Assembly (NCBI RefSeq): GCF_057098645.1
Contig: NZ_CM169472.1
Length of the DNA stretch: 64,000 nucleotides
Direction: 5' to 3' (one strand)
The position numbers and the translations under genes were made by a program. Shown here piece by piece: positions 8,384 to 17,543 of this stretch (positions within the stretch are counted from its first letter, which is position 1; each line of letters begins with the position of its first letter). The notes beneath the pieces were generated by a model that worked only from the letters and a program-made list of their open reading frames with translations, had not been told where the DNA came from and did no database searches.

Positions 8384-8412
8384 ATCATGCCATACCGCGA
8401 AAGGTTTTGCGC
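8384..8412 (-). promoter_or_regulatory. lacI promoter (-35 GCGCAA, -10 CATGAT)
   Basis: Minus strand gaatggcgcaaaacctttcgcggtatggcatgatagcgcc, identical to the classical lacI promoter; the -10 overlaps the stop codon of the upstream GlxA-like gene. Confidence 0.75.
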
Positions 8413-9338
8413 CATTCGGCGGGGCTGACGCCGAAGTGAGATTTAAAATGCTGACGCCAGGTCACAGGTGAGAGAAAACCCACCTCAGCCGCTATCCGCT
8501 CAACGGGCAACTGACTGGATCCCAACAGTTCCTGGCTACGGCGTAAGCGTTCAGTAATGAGCCATTCGGCGATACTCGAACCGGTCGCTTTCATAAAATG
8601 GCGAGTTAATGTGCGGCGACTCATCATTACTCGCTGCGCCAGCGAGTCGAGATCATGCTGTTGCGCAATGTTTTGCCGCAGGTAATCCAGCAGGAGATTA
8701 ATGCGTTCATCATGGGTATTTTTCGGCACTGGTTGCTCAATAAACTGCGCCTGACCGCCAGTGCGATATGGCGGTACGACCATCCGTCGGGCAATATGGT
8801 TAGCATAGTCGCTGCCAAAATGTTGCCGAACAATATACAAACAGCAATCCAGCGCCGCGGCAGTACCGGCAGAGGTAATAATGCCGTCATCGTCTACGTA
8901 CAACGCGTTAATATCCAGATGTGTTTGTGGAAAACGTGCCTGAAATTCACGCTCGAACTCCCAGTGTGTGGCGGCACGCTTATTTTTCAGTAAACCTGCA
9001 TAGCCGAGCACAAACGTGCCCAGGCAAAGCCCGACAATCTGTGCGCCGTTATCCCGTGCGGTCGTTAAGGCTTCCAGCAGTTTTTGTGGCGGTTTTTGTG
9101 TAATTGTTCCCCAGTAAGGAATTATCACAATATCCGCCTGGATGACTGCGGTATAGTCATGGGTGGCGGTTACGGAAAACCCATCGGCAGAGTCCACGTT
9201 TCCCGGCTTTTCAGCGCAGATAATTACGTGAAAGTGTTTTTTCTCCGCCATTTTTTCGCTAAATACGATAAACGGTACGGAAAGGTGAAAAGGACTAAAA
9301 CCGGCAACGGCGATAATGGCAACAGTTAGCGGGCGCAT
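8385..9338 (-). CDS. GlxA-family transcriptional regulator (N-terminal DJ-1/PfpI-like domain, C-terminal AraC-type HTH), 317 aa
   Basis: N-terminus VAIIAVAGFSPFHLSVPFIVF is a class-I glutamine-amidotransferase-like fold; C-terminus ...RRTLTRHFMKATGSSIAEWLITERLRRSQELL... is an AraC-type helix-turn-helix. Confidence 0.8.
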   Translation of the reverse strand: MRPLTVAIIAVAGFSPFHLSVPFIVFSEKMAEKKHFHVIICAEKPGNVDSADGFSVTATHDYTAVIQADIVIIPYWGTITQKPPQKLLEALTTARDNGAQIVGLCLGTFVLGYAGLLKNKRAATHWEFEREFQARFPQTHLDINALYVDDDGIITSAGTAAALDCCLYIVRQHFGSDYANHIARRMVVPPYRTGGQAQFIEQPVPKNTHDERINLLLDYLRQNIAQQHDLDSLAQRVMMSRRTLTRHFMKATGSSIAEWLITERLRRSQELLGSSQLPVERIAAEVGFLSPVTWRQHFKSHFGVSPAEWRKTFRGMA

Positions 9339-9357
9339 AACACTCTTTATCTCCGAA

Positions 9358-10134
9358 TTAGAATGTCAACGTTTCACCATCTTCTGGTACGTTTACAAAT
9401 TCGATAATTTGATTATCTCTGGCGTATTCCTTGAGCGCATCACGCGTCAGCAAACAGTGGTTTACGGCCTCCATATGTGTCGCGACAATTTGCGCTTCTG
9501 GCAGGGTAAAATGTGTTTTGAGAATATCTTCTGCTCCCATAATTATCGCGCCATGCCCCAGAACATGCGCAAATCCGGCATTCAACACAACCACTTCTGG
9601 TTGGAAAGTTAGCATTGTAGCCTCGACGTCGTCACGCCAGAGGGTATCGCCAGCCAGATAGAGCGTTTTCTCTGTCGGGTGCTGGAAAACAACGCCGCAG
9701 GCTGCGCCTAAACGCTTCGCCATAGCCGGGTCGGCATAGGTGCGATCGGAGCCGTGCTGCCCTGTCGTTTTATGCAGAGTAATATCGCCAAATTTAGTCT
9801 CGTCGGTAAGTACGGTAAGATGCGTAAATCCCTGTTTATTCAGTGATTCAGCATCTTGCTCATTTTGCACATAAATCAGTTTATCTTTAGGGACGACGCG
9901 GGAGGCTGTTTCGTCCCAGTGATCTTCATGCAAATGGGTCACGATTAGGGCGTCAACGTTGAGTAACGTTGTTAAATCGCACGGTAATTCTACCGTTGGA
10001 TTGCGGATTTCTGCGCGTGCCGTTCCGGCAAAACCCGGATAACTTCCTTTAGGCGCGAGTAACGGGTCGATAAGAAATGTTTTGCCAGCGTATTGGATAA
10101 TTTGGGTGGCATTACGAATTTGCGTAATTTTCAT
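9358..10134 (-). CDS. Metallo-beta-lactamase-fold hydrolase, about 258 aa
   Basis: HxHxDH motif (THLHEDHWDE) and downstream His/Asp ligands; likely ATG start at 10134 (the ORF track begins four codons earlier at a GTG); 19 bp upstream of the GlxA-like gene on the same strand. Confidence 0.8.
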   Translation of the reverse strand: MKITQIRNATQIIQYAGKTFLIDPLLAPKGSYPGFAGTARAEIRNPTVELPCDLTTLLNVDALIVTHLHEDHWDETASRVVPKDKLIYVQNEQDAESLNKQGFTHLTVLTDETKFGDITLHKTTGQHGSDRTYADPAMAKRLGAACGVVFQHPTEKTLYLAGDTLWRDDVEATMLTFQPEVVVLNAGFAHVLGHGAIIMGAEDILKTHFTLPEAQIVATHMEAVNHCLLTRDALKEYARDNQIIEFVNVPEDGETLTF

Positions 10135-10248: not shown

Positions 10249-11082
10249 CTAGCGTAAATGCACGCCGCTTCGCCGTCCGGCCACCAGAATAGCCTGCGAT
10301 TCAACCCCTTCTTCGATCTGTTTTGCTACCCGTTGTAGTGCCGGAAGATGCTTTTCCGCTGCTTGTTCGATGGTCATTGCGCTCGCCATATACACCAGAT
10401 TCAGACAGCCAATCACCCGCTGTTCACTGCGCAGCGGTACGGCGATAGAGGCGATCTTTTCCTCCTGATCCCAGCCGCGGTAGTTCTGTCCGTAACCCTC
10501 TTTGCGCGCGCGCGCCAGAATGGCTTCCAGCTTTAACGGTTCCCGTGCCAGTTGATAGTCATCACCGGGGCGGGAGGCTAACATTTCGATTAATTCCTTG
10601 CGTTCTTGTTCCGGGCAAAAGGCCAGCCAGGTCAGGCCCGAGGCGGTTTTCAGAAGCGGTAAACGTCGCCCGACCATTGCCCGGTGAAAAGATAATCGGC
10701 TGAAACGATGGGTGGTTTCGCGTACCACCATTGCATCAACATCCAGCGTGGACACATCTGTCGGCCATACCACTTCGCGCAACAGATCGCCCAGCAGTGG
10801 GGCCGCCAGTGCAGAAATCCACTGTTCGTCACGAAATCCTTCGCTTAATTGCCGCACTTTGATGGTCAGACGAAAACTATCATCGGAGGGACTACGCCGG
10901 ACATATCCCTCTTCCTGCAGCGTCTCCAGCAGTCGCCGCACAGTGGTGCGATGCAGGCCGCTGAGTTCCGCCAGCAGCCCGACGCTGGCACCGCCGTCAA
11001 GTTTATTTAACATATTTAATAACATTAGACCGCGGGTTAAGCCGCGCACGGTTTTGTATTCCGTCTGCTCATTGTTCTGCAT
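10249..11082 (-). CDS. mhpR: IclR-family activator MhpR, about 277 aa
   Basis: MQNNEQTEYKTVRGLTRGLMLLNMLNKLDGG...; the ORF track extends to 11196, the recognised start is the internal Met. Confidence 0.92.
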   Translation of the reverse strand: MQNNEQTEYKTVRGLTRGLMLLNMLNKLDGGASVGLLAELSGLHRTTVRRLLETLQEEGYVRRSPSDDSFRLTIKVRQLSEGFRDEQWISALAAPLLGDLLREVVWPTDVSTLDVDAMVVRETTHRFSRLSFHRAMVGRRLPLLKTASGLTWLAFCPEQERKELIEMLASRPGDDYQLAREPLKLEAILARARKEGYGQNYRGWDQEEKIASIAVPLRSEQRVIGCLNLVYMASAMTIEQAAEKHLPALQRVAKQIEEGVESQAILVAGRRSGVHLR

Positions 11083-11114
11083 ATTAATTGACATTTCTAT
11101 AGTTAAAACAACGT

Positions 11115-11131
11115 TGTGCACCTGGTGCACA
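11115..11131. promoter_or_regulatory. Perfect palindrome in the mhpR–mhpA divergent region (candidate MhpR operator)
   Basis: tGTGCACCtGGTGCACa between mhpR and mhpA. Confidence 0.6.
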
Positions 11132-11272
11132 TTCGGGCATGTTTTGATTGTAGCCGAAAACACCCTTCCTATACTGAGCGCACAATAAAAAATCATTTAC
11201 ATGTTTTTAACAAAATAAGTTGCGCTGTACTGTGCGCGCAACGGCATTTTGTCCGAGTCGTGAGGTACTGAA

Positions 11273-12937
11273 ATGGCAATACAACACCCTGACATCCAGC
11301 CTGCTGTTAACCATAGCGTTCAGGTGGCGATCGCTGGTGCCGGTCCGGTCGGGCTGATGATGGCGAACTATCTCGGCCAGATGGGCATTGACGTGCTGGT
11401 GGTGGAGAAACTCGATAAGTTGATCGACTACCCGCGTGCGATTGGTATTGATGACGAGGCGCTGCGCACCATGCAGTCGGTCGGCCTGGTCGATAATGTT
11501 CTGCCGCACACTACGCCGTGGCACGCGATGCGTTTTCTCACCCCGAAGGGCCGCTGTTTTGCTGATATTCAGCCAATGACCGATGAATTTGGCTGGCCGC
11601 GCCGTAACGCCTTTATTCAGCCGCAGGTCGATGCGGTGATGCTGGAAGGGGTGTCGCGTTTTCCGAATGTGCGCTGCTTGTTTTCCCGCGAGCTGGAGGC
11701 CTTCAGTCAGCAAGATGACGAAGTGACCTTGCACCTGAAAACGGCAGAAGGGCAGCGGGAAACGGTCAAAGCCCAGTGGCTGGTAGCCTGTGACGGTGGA
11801 GCAAGTTTTGTCCGTCGCACCCTGAATGTGCCGTTTGAAGGTAAAACTGCGCCAAATCAGTGGATTGTGGTAGATATCGCCAACGATCCGTTAAGTACGC
11901 CGCATATCTATTTGTGTTGCGATCCGGTGCGCCCGTATGTTTCTGCCGCGCTACCTCATGCGGTACGTCGATTTGAATTTATGGTGATGCCAGGAGAAAC
12001 CGAAGAACAGCTGCGTGAGCCGCAAAATATGCGCAAGCTGTTAAGCAAAGTGCTGCCTAATCCGGACAATGTTGAATTGATTCGCCAGCGTGTCTACACC
12101 CACAACGCGCGACTGGCGCAACGTTTCCGTATTGATCGCGTACTGCTGGCGGGCGATGCCGCGCACATCATGCCGGTATGGCAGGGGCAGGGCTATAACA
12201 GTGGCATGCGCGACGCCTTTAACCTCGCATGGAAACTGGCGTTGGTTATCCAGGGGAAAGCCCGCGATGCGCTGCTCGATACCTATCAACAAGAACGTCG
12301 CGATCACGCCAAAGCGATGATTGACCTGTCCGTGACGGCGGGCAACGTGCTGGCTCCGCCGAAACGCTGGCAGGGTACGTTACGTGACGGCGTTTCCTGG
12401 CTGCTGAATTATCTGCCGCCAGTAAAACGCTACTTCCTCGAAATGCGCTTCAAGCCGATGCCGCAATATTACGGCGGTGCGCTGGTACGTGAGGGCGAAG
12501 CGAAGCACTCTCCGGTCGGCAAGATGTTTATTCAGCCGAAAGTCACGCTGGAAAACGGCGACGTGACGCTGCTCGATAACGCGATCGGCGCGAACTTCGC
12601 GGTAATTGGCTGGGGATGCAATCCACTGTGGGGGATGAGCGACGAGCAAATCCAGCAGTGGCGCGCGTTGGGCACACGCTTCATTCAGGTGGTGCCGGAA
12701 GTGCAAATTCATACCGCACAGGATAACCATGACGGCGTACTACGCGTGGGGGATACGCAAGGTCGCCTGCGTAGCTGGTTCGCGCAACACAATGCTTCGC
12801 TGGTGGTGATGCGCCCGGATCGCTTTGTTGCCGCCACCGCCATTCCGCAAACCCTGGGCAAGACCCTGAATAAACTGGCGTCGGTGATGACGCTGACCCG
12901 CCCTGATGCCGACGTTTCTGTCGAAAAGGTAGCCTGA
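11273..12937 (+). CDS. mhpA: 3-(3-hydroxyphenyl)propionate hydroxylase MhpA, 554 aa
   Basis: FAD-binding N-terminus [29 protein letters not shown]; first gene of the mhp operon. Confidence 0.96.
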
Positions 12938-12938
12938 T

Positions 12939-13883
12939 ATGCACGCTTATCTTCATTGTCTTTCCCACTCGCCGCTGGTGGGGTATGTCGACCCGGCACA
13001 AGAGGTACTCGATGAGGTCAATGGCGTGATTGCCAGCGCCCGCGAGCGTATTGCGGCTTTCTCCCCTGAACTGGTGGTGCTGTTTGCGCCAGATCACTAC
13101 AACGGCTTTTTCTATGACGTGATGCCACCGTTCTGTTTAGGCGTTGGAGCGACGGCAATTGGTGATTTCGGCAGTGCGGCAGGAGAGCTGCCCGTGCCTG
13201 TGGAGCTGGCGGAGGCCTGTGCGCATGCCGTCATGAAGAGCGGGATCGATCTTGCCGTTTCTTACTGTATGCAGGTGGACCACGGGTTCGCCCAGCCGCT
13301 GGAGTTCCTGCTCGGTGGGCTGGATAAGGTGCCAGTTCTGCCTGTGTTCATCAACGGTGTCGCCACGCCGCTGCCCGGTTTCCAGCGTACCCGCATGTTG
13401 GGTGAAGCCATTGGACGTTTCACCAGCACTCTCAATAAACGCGTGCTGTTCCTGGGTTCCGGTGGGCTTTCCCATCAGCCGCCGGTGCCTGAACTGGCGA
13501 AAGCCGATGCCCATATGCGCGACCGTCTGTTGGGGAGCGGGAAAGATTTACCCGCCAGTGAGCGCGAATTGCGTCAGCAACGGGTGATTAGCGCCGCTGA
13601 GAAGTTTGTTGAGGATCAGAGAACTCTGCATCCGCTCAACCCGATTTGGGATAACCAGTTCATGACTTTGCTGGAGCAGGGACGCATACAGGAACTGGAT
13701 GCCGTCAGTAACGAAGAGCTTTCCGCCATTGCCGGAAAGTCGACACATGAAATCAAAACCTGGGTCGCCGCTTTTGCCGCTATTTCTGCATTTGGCAACT
13801 GGCGTAGCGAAGGGCGTTATTACCGCCCAATCCCGGAGTGGATTGCCGGATTTGGCTCGTTAAGCGCCAGAACAGAGAACTGA
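12939..13883 (+). CDS. mhpB: 2,3-dihydroxyphenylpropionate 1,2-dioxygenase MhpB, 314 aa
   Basis: [19 protein letters not shown]...; extradiol dioxygenase in operon position. Confidence 0.96.
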
Positions 13884-13900
13884 ATTTGCAGGAGAAGATG

Positions 13901-14767
13901 ATGAGTTATCAGCCACAAACCGAAGCCGCCACCAGCCGTTTTCTGAATGTAGAAGAAGCGGGTAAAACGCTGCGCATCCATTTTAATGACTGCGGACAAG
14001 GCGACGAAACCGTTGTCCTGCTGCATGGTTCCGGCCCGGGTGCTACTGGCTGGGCGAACTTCAGCCGCAATATCGATCCGCTGGTAGAGGCGGGCTATCG
14101 GGTGATCCTACTGGATTGTCCGGGTTGGGGCAAGAGCGATTCGATCGTTAATAGTGGTTCACGATCGGATCTTAATGCGCGCATCCTGAAAAGTGTGGTG
14201 GATCAACTGGATATCGCCAAAATCCACCTGTTGGGCAACTCGATGGGCGGCCATAGTTCTGTGGCGTTCACCCTTAACTGGCCGGAGCGCGTCGGCAAAC
14301 TGGTGCTGATGGGCGGCGGTACGGGCGGCATGAGTTTGTTTACGCCGATGCCAACCGAAGGTATTAAGCGACTGAATCAGCTTTATCGTCAGCCGACTAT
14401 CGAAAACCTGAAACTGATGATGGATATCTTCGTTTTTGATACCAGCGATTTGACCGACGCCCTGTTTGAAGCGCGCCTGAATAATATGCTGTCGCGCCGC
14501 GATCACCTGGAAAACTTCGTTAAGAGCCTGGAAGCCAATCCGAAACAGTTCCCTGATTTTGGCCCACGTCTGGCGGAAATCAAAGCGCAAACCCTGATTG
14601 TCTGGGGGCGCAACGACCGCTTTGTGCCGATGGATGCGGGGCTGCGTCTACTGTCCGGCATTGCTGGTTCTGAACTGCATATCTTCCGCGACTGTGGTCA
14701 CTGGGCGCAGTGGGAACATGCCGATGCTTTCAATCAACTGGTGCTGAATTTCCTCGCACGTGCTTAA
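13901..14767 (+). CDS. mhpC: 2-hydroxy-6-ketonona-2,4-dienedioate hydrolase MhpC, 288 aa
   Basis: Alpha/beta hydrolase with GNSMGG nucleophile motif; start [14 protein letters not shown] preceded by RBS caggagaag; the ORF track extends upstream to 13838. Confidence 0.93.
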
Positions 14768-16529
<1,762 letters not shown>

Positions 16530-16533
<4 letters not shown>

Positions 16534-17543
16534 ACGGTAAAAAACTTTATATCTCGGACGTCACGTTGCGTGACGGTATGCACGCCATTCGTCATCAGTA
16601 TTCGCTGGAAAACGTTCGCCAGATTGCCAAAGCACTGGACGATGCCCGCGTGGATTCGATTGAAGTGGCCCACGGCGACGGTTTGCAGGGTTCCAGCTTT
16701 AACTATGGTTTCGGCGCACATAGCGACCTTGAATGGATTGAAGCGGCGGCGGATGTTGTGAAGCACGCCAAAATCGCGACGTTGTTGCTGCCAGGAATCG
16801 GCACTATTCACGATCTGAAAAATGCCTGGCAGGCTGGCGCGCGGGTGGTTCGTGTGGCAACGCACTGTACCGAAGCTGATGTTTCCGCCCAGCATATTCA
16901 GTATGCCCGCGAGCTCGGAATGGACACCGTTGGTTTTCTGATGATGAGCCATATGACCACGCCGGAGAATCTCGCCAAGCAGGCAAAGCTGATGGAAGGC
17001 TACGGTGCGACCTGTATTTATGTGGTGGATTCTGGCGGTGCGATGAACATGAGCGATATCCGTGACCGTTTCCGCGCCCTGAAAGCAGTGCTGAAACCAG
17101 AAACGCAAACCGGCATGCACGCTCACCATAACCTGAGTCTTGGCGTGGCGAACTCTATCGCGGCGGTGGAAGAGGGCTGCGACCGAATCGACGCCAGCCT
17201 CGCGGGAATGGGCGCGGGCGCAGGTAACGCGCCGCTGGAAGTATTTATTGCCGCCGCGGATAAACTGGGTTGGCAGCATGGGGCCGATCTCTATGCGTTA
17301 ATGGATGCCGCTGACGACCTGGTGCGTCCGTTGCAGGATCGACCGGTACGAGTCGATCGCGAAACGCTGGCGCTGGGATACGCTGGTGTTTACTCCAGCT
17401 TCCTGCGTCACTGTGAAACGGCGGCGGCGCGTTATGGCTTAAGCGCGGTGGATATTCTCGTTGAGCTGGGCAAACGCCGGATGGTTGGCGGCCAGGAGGA
17501 TATGATCGTCGACGTGGCGCTGGATCTGCGCAACAACAAATAA
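16530..17543 (+). CDS. mhpE: 4-hydroxy-2-oxovalerate aldolase MhpE, 337 aa
   Basis: [25 protein letters not shown]...; 4-bp overlap with mhpF. Confidence 0.96.

What the first reader, a model, noticed from the sequence alone, without database searches (positions are those of the whole stretch)
11115..11131. Perfect palindrome in the mhpR–mhpA divergent promoter region
tGTGCACCtGGTGCACa is a 17-bp near-perfect palindrome centred between mhpR and mhpA. This is the expected place for the binding site of the IclR-type activator MhpR.
Basis: partly seen in the sequence, partly recalled or inferred. Interest (0 to 1): 0.2.

Follow-up and report, generated by a model that had tools for sequence, protein, structure and literature searches.

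The report
Known MhpR operator upstream of mhpA
The 17-bp palindrome is the already-published binding site of the activator MhpR, which switches on the E. coli genes for degrading 3-hydroxyphenylpropionate; it is real and strongly conserved but ordinary and not new.

Summary
TGTGCACC-T-GGTGCACA lies at window 11115-11131, with perfect 8-bp arms around one central base. It sits in the 190-bp gap between mhpR (10249-11082, minus strand) and mhpA (11273-12937, plus strand) of E. coli O145 RM9872. It matches 16 of 17 bases of the MhpR site GGTGCACCTGGTGCACA that a review attributes to Torres et al. 2003. K-12 has G at the first base, and this strain's T makes the palindrome perfect. T is the majority allele in E. 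coli: at least 2,834 of about 4,890 records, against 1,335 with G. The core is two copies of the self-complementary hexamer GTGCAC, 9 bp apart. In 78 of 80 MhpR-encoding loci from about 20 genera, this box (at most 1 mismatch) lies upstream of the regulator gene. The hexamers are nearly invariant and the spacer varies. A conserved -35-like TTGTAG and -10 TATACT follow at fixed spacing, which places the box near -58 of the mhpA promoter. The RNA-hairpin, terminator, CRP-site and chance readings are not supported. Minor corrections: the site is 41 bp from mhpR and 150 bp from mhpA, so it is not centred. Such a palindrome is also unremarkable by chance across 64 kb.

The parts
11115..11131 (.). 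17-bp palindrome TGTGCACC-T-GGTGCACA, the MhpR operator of the Pa (mhpA) promoter
   Evidence: Sequence. 16/17 identical to the published MhpR motif as quoted in PMC8222616. Conserved box in 78/80 loci.
11116..11121 (.). Left GTGCAC hexamer (self-complementary), conserved core half-site
   Evidence: About 1.9-2.0 bits per position across 50 unique anchored sequences. Invariant in 7 E. coli alleles.
11125..11130 (.). Right GTGCAC hexamer, conserved core half-site, 9 bp from the left one
   Evidence: About 1.8-2.0 bits per position. Invariant in 7 E. coli alleles.
10249..11082 (-). mhpR, IclR-family activator (277 aa)
   Evidence: RefSeq annotation. Pfam HTH_IclR and IclR_C. NCBIfam NF007341 at 345 bits against a cut-off of 269.
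11273..12937 (+). mhpA, 3-(3-hydroxyphenyl)propionate hydroxylase, first gene of the regulated operon
   Evidence: RefSeq annotation. Pfam FAD_binding_3.
12939..17543 (+). mhpBCDFE, the rest of the catabolic operon driven by Pa
   Evidence: RefSeq annotation of the identical genome.
11170..11175 (+). Predicted Pa -10 hexamer TATACT. It implies a start near 11181-11182 and puts the box centre at about -58
   Evidence: Best -10 candidate on the + strand. TATACT is conserved at fixed distance from the box in Enterobacterales and Pseudomonadales. The TSS itself is inferred.
11140..11153 (+). Conserved block TGTTTTGATTGTAG containing the predicted weak -35 (TTGTAG, 16-bp spacer)
11075..11096 (.). 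Weak CRP-like site TTCTGCATATTAATTGACATTT (centre 11085.5, 37.5 bp from the box centre), candidate for the MhpR-dependent CRP site of Pa
   Evidence: 4 core mismatches with a good right half TGACATTT. The right half is conserved in Escherichia, Citrobacter, Pseudocitrobacter and some Kluyvera, but not in Klebsiella or Raoultella. The assignment rests on my recollection of the published positions and is inferred.
11104..11111 (.). Conserved TAAAACAA block next to the box, function not assigned
   Evidence: 1.2-1.6 bits per position. Present in both clades.

Best explanation
The palindrome is the operator of MhpR, the IclR-family activator encoded by the divergent gene mhpR. An MhpR oligomer binds the two GTGCAC hexamers, one per DNA-binding domain of a dimer, 9 bp apart. 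The site lies about 58 bp upstream of the start of the Pa promoter, which has a poor -35 (TTGTAG) and a good -10 (TATACT). With the inducer 3-(3-hydroxyphenyl)propionate, bound MhpR activates transcription of mhpABCDFE. In E. coli it also allows cAMP-CRP to bind a weak site further upstream, so the operon needs both the substrate and the absence of glucose. Shown here: the sequence identity to the published site, the identity of the regulator, and the co-conservation of box, spacing and promoter across genera. Taken from the literature: that MhpR binds here, is 3HPP-dependent and is required for CRP binding. Inferred: the exact TSS, the -58 position and which CRP-like sequence is used.
For: Identity to the published site:
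- The IclR-family review PMC8222616 lists the E. coli MhpR motif GGTGCACCTGGTGCACA from Torres et al. 2003.
- K-12 has exactly this sequence at the homologous position, and the window differs only by T for G at base 1.

The regulator and its published role:
- mhpR encodes an IclR-type regulator.
- PMC8753852 summarises MhpR as the 3HPP-dependent activator of Pa that is essential for CRP binding.

Cross-species conservation:
- In 78 of 80 loci encoding MhpR homologues (60-99% identity, about 20 genera) a GTGCAC-N3-GTGCAC box with at most 1 mismatch lies within 400 bp upstream of the regulator. It is usually 30-43 bp from its ATG.
- Only 3 further boxes occur in the other ~490 kb of locus DNA. 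All three are in Marinobacterium, in front of a second mhp operon.
- The hexamers carry about 2 bits per position while the spacer and flanks vary.
- TTGTAG and TATACT follow at constant spacing in both Enterobacterales and Pseudomonadales.
- Where mhpA is replaced by an HsaA-like hydroxylase, the box still precedes the mhpB operon.
- A near-identical predicted box, TGTGCAT-N3-ATGCACA, lies at -41 of the Burkholderia xenovorans mhpR homologue in the supplement of PMC8222616.

Within E. coli, both hexamers are invariant in 7 sampled alleles.
Against: - I could not read the primary footprinting papers (Torres 2003; Manso 2009, 2011). The -58 and -95.5 positions are my recollection plus sequence inference.
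- The generic promoter scan found no sigma-70 promoter passing its threshold in 11000-11320. That is expected for an activator-dependent promoter, but it means the TSS is not computationally established.
- Binding to the T allele specifically has not been tested.
- The palindrome alone is not statistically unusual in 64 kb.
Confidence: 0.95

Rival explanations
1. The palindrome acts as RNA. Read on the minus strand, it would form a hairpin in the 5' leader of the mhpR transcript, followed by a U-rich stretch. It would work as an intrinsic terminator or attenuator, or as a stabilising 5' hairpin.
For: The terminator scan flags TGTGCACCAGGTGCACA followed by ACGTTGTTTT on the minus strand. The T-rich block (AAAACAA on the plus strand) is conserved next to the box. 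Candidate mhpR promoters lie upstream of the palindrome, for example -10 TACAAT at 11152-11147, so it is probably transcribed.
Against: The 59-nt leader folds no better than shuffles (-9.7 kcal/mol, z = -0.20, 77 of 200 shuffles as good). The stem is only 7 bp, and the U-run is interrupted and separated from the stem by ACG. Across genera the hexamer sequence itself is invariant rather than covarying. The inner pair N1:N3 is non-complementary in 15 of 50 sequences. That is the signature of protein recognition, not of a conserved RNA helix. In Marinobacterium a second box sits outside any mhpR leader, in front of mhpB.
Confidence: 0.03
2. It is a binding site for another regulator, most obviously cAMP-CRP, because TGTGC...GCACA resembles the CRP half-sites TGTGA...TCACA.
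For: There is a superficial resemblance of the arms to CRP half-sites. The mhp promoters are known to be CRP-dependent.
Against: The half-site spacing is wrong (7 rather than 6). Both possible registers have 5 of 10 core mismatches, worse than several other positions in the region. The box is equally conserved in Pseudomonas, Azotobacter and Marinobacterium, always next to an MhpR homologue. The published assignment is MhpR.
Confidence: 0.01
3. It is a chance palindrome with no function: two ApaLI-type GTGCAC hexamers that happen to lie 9 bp apart.
For: About 2.6 palindromes of this quality are expected per 64 kb by chance, and only one is seen.
Against: Assuming equal base frequencies, the chance of a hit with at most 1 mismatch to the 12 specified bases in 400 bp is about 9e-4 per locus, yet 78 of 80 loci have one at a nearly fixed position. 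The surrounding intergenic sequence has diverged heavily between clades.
Confidence: 0.01

Closest known systems
MhpR operator of the E. coli K-12 Pa promoter (Torres, Porras, Garcia and Diaz 2003, J Biol Chem 278:27575; quoted in PMC8222616)
   Same: Same locus, same flanking genes and the same 15-bp core GTGCACCTGGTGCAC. 16 of 17 bases are identical, and the intergenic region differs from K-12 at only 2 of 190 positions.
   Different: Base 1 is T instead of G, which makes the outer pair complementary and gives a perfect 17-bp palindrome instead of 15 bp. T is the commoner allele in E. coli and the consensus across genera (35 of 50).
Operators of other IclR-family aromatic-catabolism regulators (PcaU, PobR, PcaR, HmgR, GenR), grouped with MhpR in PMC8222616
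   Same: Short palindromes of about 15-19 bp in the divergent regulator/operon intergenic region, bound by an IclR-type protein that often acts as an activator.
   Different: The half-site sequence differs: GTGCAC here, against for example GTCCGAT or GTTCGAT-type half-sites. [quoted passage not shown] The conserved flanks AAAACAA and TGTTTT do not resemble the half-site.
Predicted MhpR box of Burkholderia xenovorans Bxe_B2330 (supplement of PMC8222616)
   Same: TGTGCAT-aga-ATGCACA at -41 from the regulator's start. It has the same architecture, spacing and distance as here, where the centre is 41 bp from the ATG.
   Different: There is a symmetric change at the innermost hexamer position (C to T on the left, G to A on the right).

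Membership tests
MhpR operator (binding site of the IclR-type activator of the mhp cluster) | Sequence matches the experimentally defined site GGTGCACCTGGTGCACA | tested here: met
   16 of 17 bases identical, and the K-12 homologous position is identical to the published motif.
MhpR operator (binding site of the IclR-type activator of the mhp cluster) | Lies in the mhpR-mhpA intergenic region, upstream of the promoter of the catabolic operon | tested here: met
   Annotation. The predicted -10 TATACT lies 47-52 bp downstream of the centre, and this spacing is conserved.
MhpR operator (binding site of the IclR-type activator of the mhp cluster) | The adjacent gene encodes MhpR (HTH_IclR plus IclR_C, MhpR equivalog) | tested here: met
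MhpR operator (binding site of the IclR-type activator of the mhp cluster) | The box co-occurs with MhpR orthologues in other genomes and is specific to mhp promoters | tested here: met
   78 of 80 loci carry it. The 3 extra boxes all lie in front of mhpB operons. The 2 Vibrio loci without a box also lack mhpA.
MhpR operator (binding site of the IclR-type activator of the mhp cluster) | Direct protection or retardation by purified MhpR | not testable with these tools
   Published for K-12 according to secondary sources. The primary paper is not held. The T allele has not been tested, as far as I could find.
MhpR operator (binding site of the IclR-type activator of the mhp cluster) | Centred near -58 of the mapped Pa transcription start | tested here: inconclusive
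   This fits the predicted -10 and my recollection of the published value. No TSS data were accessible, and the generic scan called no promoter.
Rho-independent terminator or attenuator (minus strand) | Stable GC-rich stem immediately followed by an uninterrupted U-tract, with the structure conserved by covariation | tested here: not met
   The loose consensus scan flags it. However, the fold z-score is -0.20, the U-run is interrupted and offset from the stem, and the hexamers are invariant with no covariation.
cAMP-CRP site | TGTGA-N6-TCACA with few core mismatches | tested here: not met
   5 of 10 core mismatches in both registers over the palindrome.

The most novel reading that the evidence does not exclude
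The operator could be a tunable element within E. coli. The T/G polymorphism at the outer pair (11115) might change MhpR affinity between lineages. The 9-bp self-similarity of the site might allow slipped-strand expansions to 3 or 4 GTGCAC copies, as seen in two genomes. Such expansions would move the upstream CRP site by 9 or 18 bp and could switch mhp expression. In addition, because the site is probably transcribed in the mhpR leader, its hairpin might influence mhpR mRNA. None of this is excluded by my data, and none of it is supported beyond the existence of the variants.
Probability: 0.07. Interest if true: 0.35.

Novelty: already known. Interest (0 to 1): 0.08.

Why it matters
It matters little beyond correct annotation. 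The site is a textbook-type operator of a well-studied catabolic operon. The checks add some small refinements:
- The perfect 17-bp form in this window is the majority E. coli allele, and K-12's published imperfect form is the minority variant.
- The conserved recognition core is GTGCAC-N3-GTGCAC.
- The box-to-promoter geometry is conserved from Escherichia to Pseudomonas.

These points are useful for regulon prediction and for MhpR-based biosensor design, but not surprising.

Tried and rejected
- Primary literature: I tried to read Torres 2003, Manso 2009 and Manso 2011 by DOI, PubMed id and PMC id, and two MMBR reviews by PMC id. None is held. A search for 'MhpR' plus '95.5' returned only irrelevant papers. 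The PredCRP supplement has no mhp entry. The Footprint-seq preprint could not analyse the mhpR/mhpA CRP sites because the region is deleted in its strain.
- Promoter scan: the generic sigma-70 scan found nothing in the region, so promoter elements rest on my relaxed scan plus conservation.
- Tandem-expansion alleles: counting them with a 70-bp query failed because BLAST joined overlapping pieces on ordinary alleles.
- Rejected readings: the terminator/RNA-hairpin reading, the CRP reading and chance.
- Flanking inverted repeat: I considered the repeat 11097-11110 / 11140-11153 as an extended symmetric operator. Its centre (11125) is offset by 2 bp from the palindrome centre. Its right arm coincides with the -35 region, so I do not assign it to MhpR.

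Full report
**Observation.** Window 11115-11131 reads TGTGCACCTGGTGCACA. The arms 11115-11122 and 11124-11131 are fully complementary around a single central T. The next bases out do not pair. In this strain it is therefore a perfect 8+1+8 palindrome.

The window is 100% identical to E. coli O145 str. RM9872. There RefSeq annotates mhpR at window 10249-11082 (minus strand) and mhpA at 11273-12937 (plus strand), followed by mhpBCDFE and mhpT. The palindrome lies in the 190-bp intergenic region. Its centre (11123) is 41 bp from the mhpR ATG and 150 bp from the mhpA ATG, so it is not centred between the genes.

**Is it more than chance?** Not on palindrome statistics alone.
- Markov-1 simulations of the window give about 2.6 palindromes with arms of at least 8 nt and a spacer of 0-1 per 64 kb. 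One is observed.
- The chance of one falling inside this particular 190-bp region is about 0.012.
- There is no second copy in the window at up to 3 mismatches and no close copy of the 15-bp core.

The case for function therefore rests on homology and conservation.

**Anatomy.** The 17-mer is two copies of the self-complementary hexamer GTGCAC (11116-11121 and 11125-11130) separated by CTG. It is thus an inverted repeat and also a 9-bp direct repeat.

K-12 MG1655 has GGTGCACCTGGTGCACA. Its intergenic region differs from the window only at 11115 (G in K-12, T here) and at 11244.

Exact-match counts with 61-mers over complete E. coli genomes:

| Allele | Exact matches |
|---|---|
| Window allele (T at 11115) | 2,085 records |
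| T at 11115 plus C-to-A at 11097 (outside the palindrome) | 749 records |
| K-12 allele (G at 11115) | 1,335 records |
| Records with any match | about 4,890 |

. The perfect 17-bp form is therefore the majority allele.

In seven sampled alleles both hexamers are invariant. One strain has C-to-T at 11122, the inner pair. Two assemblies carry 9-bp and 18-bp tandem expansions, giving 3 and 4 hexamer copies.

**What it is.**
- The left-hand gene encodes an IclR-family protein: HTH_IclR plus IclR_C in Pfam, and NCBIfam equivalog NF007341 at 345 bits against a cut-off of 269.
- A comparative review of IclR-family motifs lists the experimentally defined E. coli MhpR site as GGTGCACCTGGTGCACA, citing Torres et al. 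2003 (PMC8222616). That is the K-12 sequence at this very position.
- mhpR's own promoter is CRP-regulated, according to Manso et al. 2011 as quoted in PMC12132413.

The primary papers are not in the held library.

**Independent test by phylogenetic footprinting.** I aligned 18 MhpR homologues and fetched 80 genomic loci from one genome per species. The genera include Escherichia, Citrobacter, Klebsiella, Raoultella, Kluyvera, Pseudocitrobacter, Shimwellia, Pluralibacter, Pseudomonas, Stutzerimonas, Azotobacter, Azomonas, Marinobacterium, Marinobacter, Zobellella and Vibrio. Protein identity ranges from 60 to 99%.

- In 78 of 80 loci, GTGCAC-N3-GTGCAC with at most 1 mismatch lies within 400 bp upstream of the regulator gene. 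In most it is centred 30-43 bp from the ATG.
- Assuming equal base frequencies, the chance expectation is about 9e-4 per locus (my calculation).
- In the remaining ~490 kb of locus DNA there are only 3 further boxes. All three are in Marinobacterium. They lie just upstream of a second operon that starts with mhpB (3-carboxyethylcatechol 2,3-dioxygenase, above its NCBIfam cut-off) and an HsaA-like oxygenase.
- In the Pseudomonas and Stutzerimonas loci without mhpA, the single box likewise faces mhpB plus the HsaA-like gene.
- The two Vibrio loci without a box also lack mhpA.

Per-position information is about 2 bits in both hexamers. It is low in the spacer (CTG, TTA, ATA, TAA and others) and moderate at the outer T/A pair, which is T in 35 of 50 and A in 35 of 50 sequences. 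The supplement of PMC8222616 independently predicts TGTGCAT-aga-ATGCACA at -41 of the Burkholderia xenovorans mhpR homologue.

**Promoter geometry.** The generic sigma-70 scan calls nothing in 11000-11320, as expected for an activator-dependent promoter.

A relaxed scan gives TATACT at 11170-11175 as the best plus-strand -10, with TTGTAG at 11148-11153 as a weak -35 at 16-bp spacing. Anchoring all 78 sequences on the box shows these blocks conserved at fixed distances in both Enterobacterales and Pseudomonadales:
- TAAAACAA (rel. -19 to -12)
- GTTTTnCATTGTAG (rel. +17 to +30)
- TTCCTATACT (rel. +44 to +53)

This supports TATACT as the Pa -10. It implies a start near 11181-11182, which puts the box centre at about -58.

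A weak CRP-like 22-mer at 11075-11096 (centre 11085.5) would then lie at about -95.5. It has a good right half, TGACATTT. That right half is conserved in Escherichia, Citrobacter, Pseudocitrobacter and some Kluyvera, but not in Klebsiella or Raoultella.

The values -58 and -95.5 coincide with what I recall from the abstract of Torres et al. 2003. That recollection is my own knowledge and was not verified here.

**Mechanism (best explanation, confidence about 0.95).** MhpR binds the two GTGCAC half-sites upstream of a promoter with a poor -35. With 3HPP it activates mhpABCDFE. In E. coli it also enables cAMP-CRP to occupy a weak upstream site.
- Shown here: sequence identity, regulator identity, and the co-conservation of box, spacing and promoter.
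- From the literature: binding, inducer dependence and CRP recruitment.
- Inferred: the TSS and the CRP-site assignment.

**Rivals.**
1. *RNA hairpin or terminator in the mhpR leader.* The scan flags the minus-strand reading, and the site is probably transcribed from mhpR promoters lying upstream of it. But the leader folds no better than shuffles (z = -0.20). The U-run is interrupted and offset from the stem. Conservation is of sequence, not of pairing. The second Marinobacterium box lies outside any mhpR leader.
2. *CRP site.* The half-site spacing is wrong and 5 of 10 core positions mismatch.
3. *Chance.* This is excluded by the conservation data.

**Novelty and verdict.** The site is already known. 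Small additions are the allele frequencies, the GTGCAC-N3-GTGCAC core and the cross-genus promoter architecture. Interest is low.

Noticed in passing
L007:151-220 (E. coli Z1323CEC0010) and L005:281-338 (E. coli Z1323HEC0011); homologous to window 11115-11131: Two complete E. coli assemblies carry tandem expansions of the 9-bp unit TGGTGCACC inside the MhpR operator. They have 3 and 4 GTGCAC hexamers instead of 2. This may be real slipped-strand variation or an assembly artefact. Either way it would shift the upstream CRP-like site by 9 or 18 bp.
   Followed up: partly
window 11115: The T here (G in K-12) completes the 17-bp palindrome. T is the majority E. coli allele (at least 2,834 against 1,335 exact 61-mer matches) and the cross-genus consensus. 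The published K-12 site is therefore the less symmetric variant.
   Followed up: yes
window 8385-10134: Two genes, a GlxA-family transcriptional regulator and an MBL-fold metallo-hydrolase, lie between lacI and mhpR in this strain. In K-12, lacI directly abuts mhpR. Most E. coli matches to the 1.5-kb query begin only at the mhpR stop, so the junction downstream of mhpR is variable.
   Followed up: no
window 10249-11196 (minus strand): The longest ORF for mhpR is 315 aa and starts at an ATG at 11196. The largest protein cluster in the database also uses this 315-aa model (P0001, 5,956 members). That model would place the operator, and most of the Pa promoter, inside coding sequence. RefSeq's 277-aa start and the 263-285-aa homologues in other genera argue for the short form.
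   Followed up: partly
window 11104-11111: A TAAAACAA block 12-19 bp to the left of the box centre is conserved from Escherichia to Pseudomonas (1.2-1.6 bits per position). I could not assign it. It might be part of the mhpR promoter, an extended MhpR contact or a bending tract.
   Followed up: no
window 11092-11094 (minus strand): An in-frame ATG lies four codons upstream of the annotated mhpR start (ATG TCA ATT AAT ATG). No Shine-Dalgarno sequence is evident before either ATG. In many Pseudomonas loci the box is only about 31 bp from the ATG, which leaves room for only a very short leader, or none.
   Followed up: no
L041:1601-2766, L046:1609-2777, L066:3801-6219, L075:3823-6230, L057:2671-3836: In some Pseudomonas, Stutzerimonas and Marinobacterium genomes the MhpR box precedes an operon starting with mhpB followed by an HsaA-like two-component oxygenase, instead of the single-component MhpA. 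Marinobacterium has two boxes, one on each side of mhpR.
   Followed up: partly
L040 and L048 (Vibrio cincinnatiensis, V. furnissii): The MhpR homologues here (69-74% identity) have no GTGCAC-N3-GTGCAC box within 400 bp upstream and no mhpA in the locus. In L040, tryptophan-synthase-like ORFs lie upstream of the regulator gene.
   Followed up: no
window 11244: This is the second and only other difference from K-12 in the intergenic region (G here, A in K-12). It lies in the presumed mhpA 5' untranslated region.
   Followed up: no
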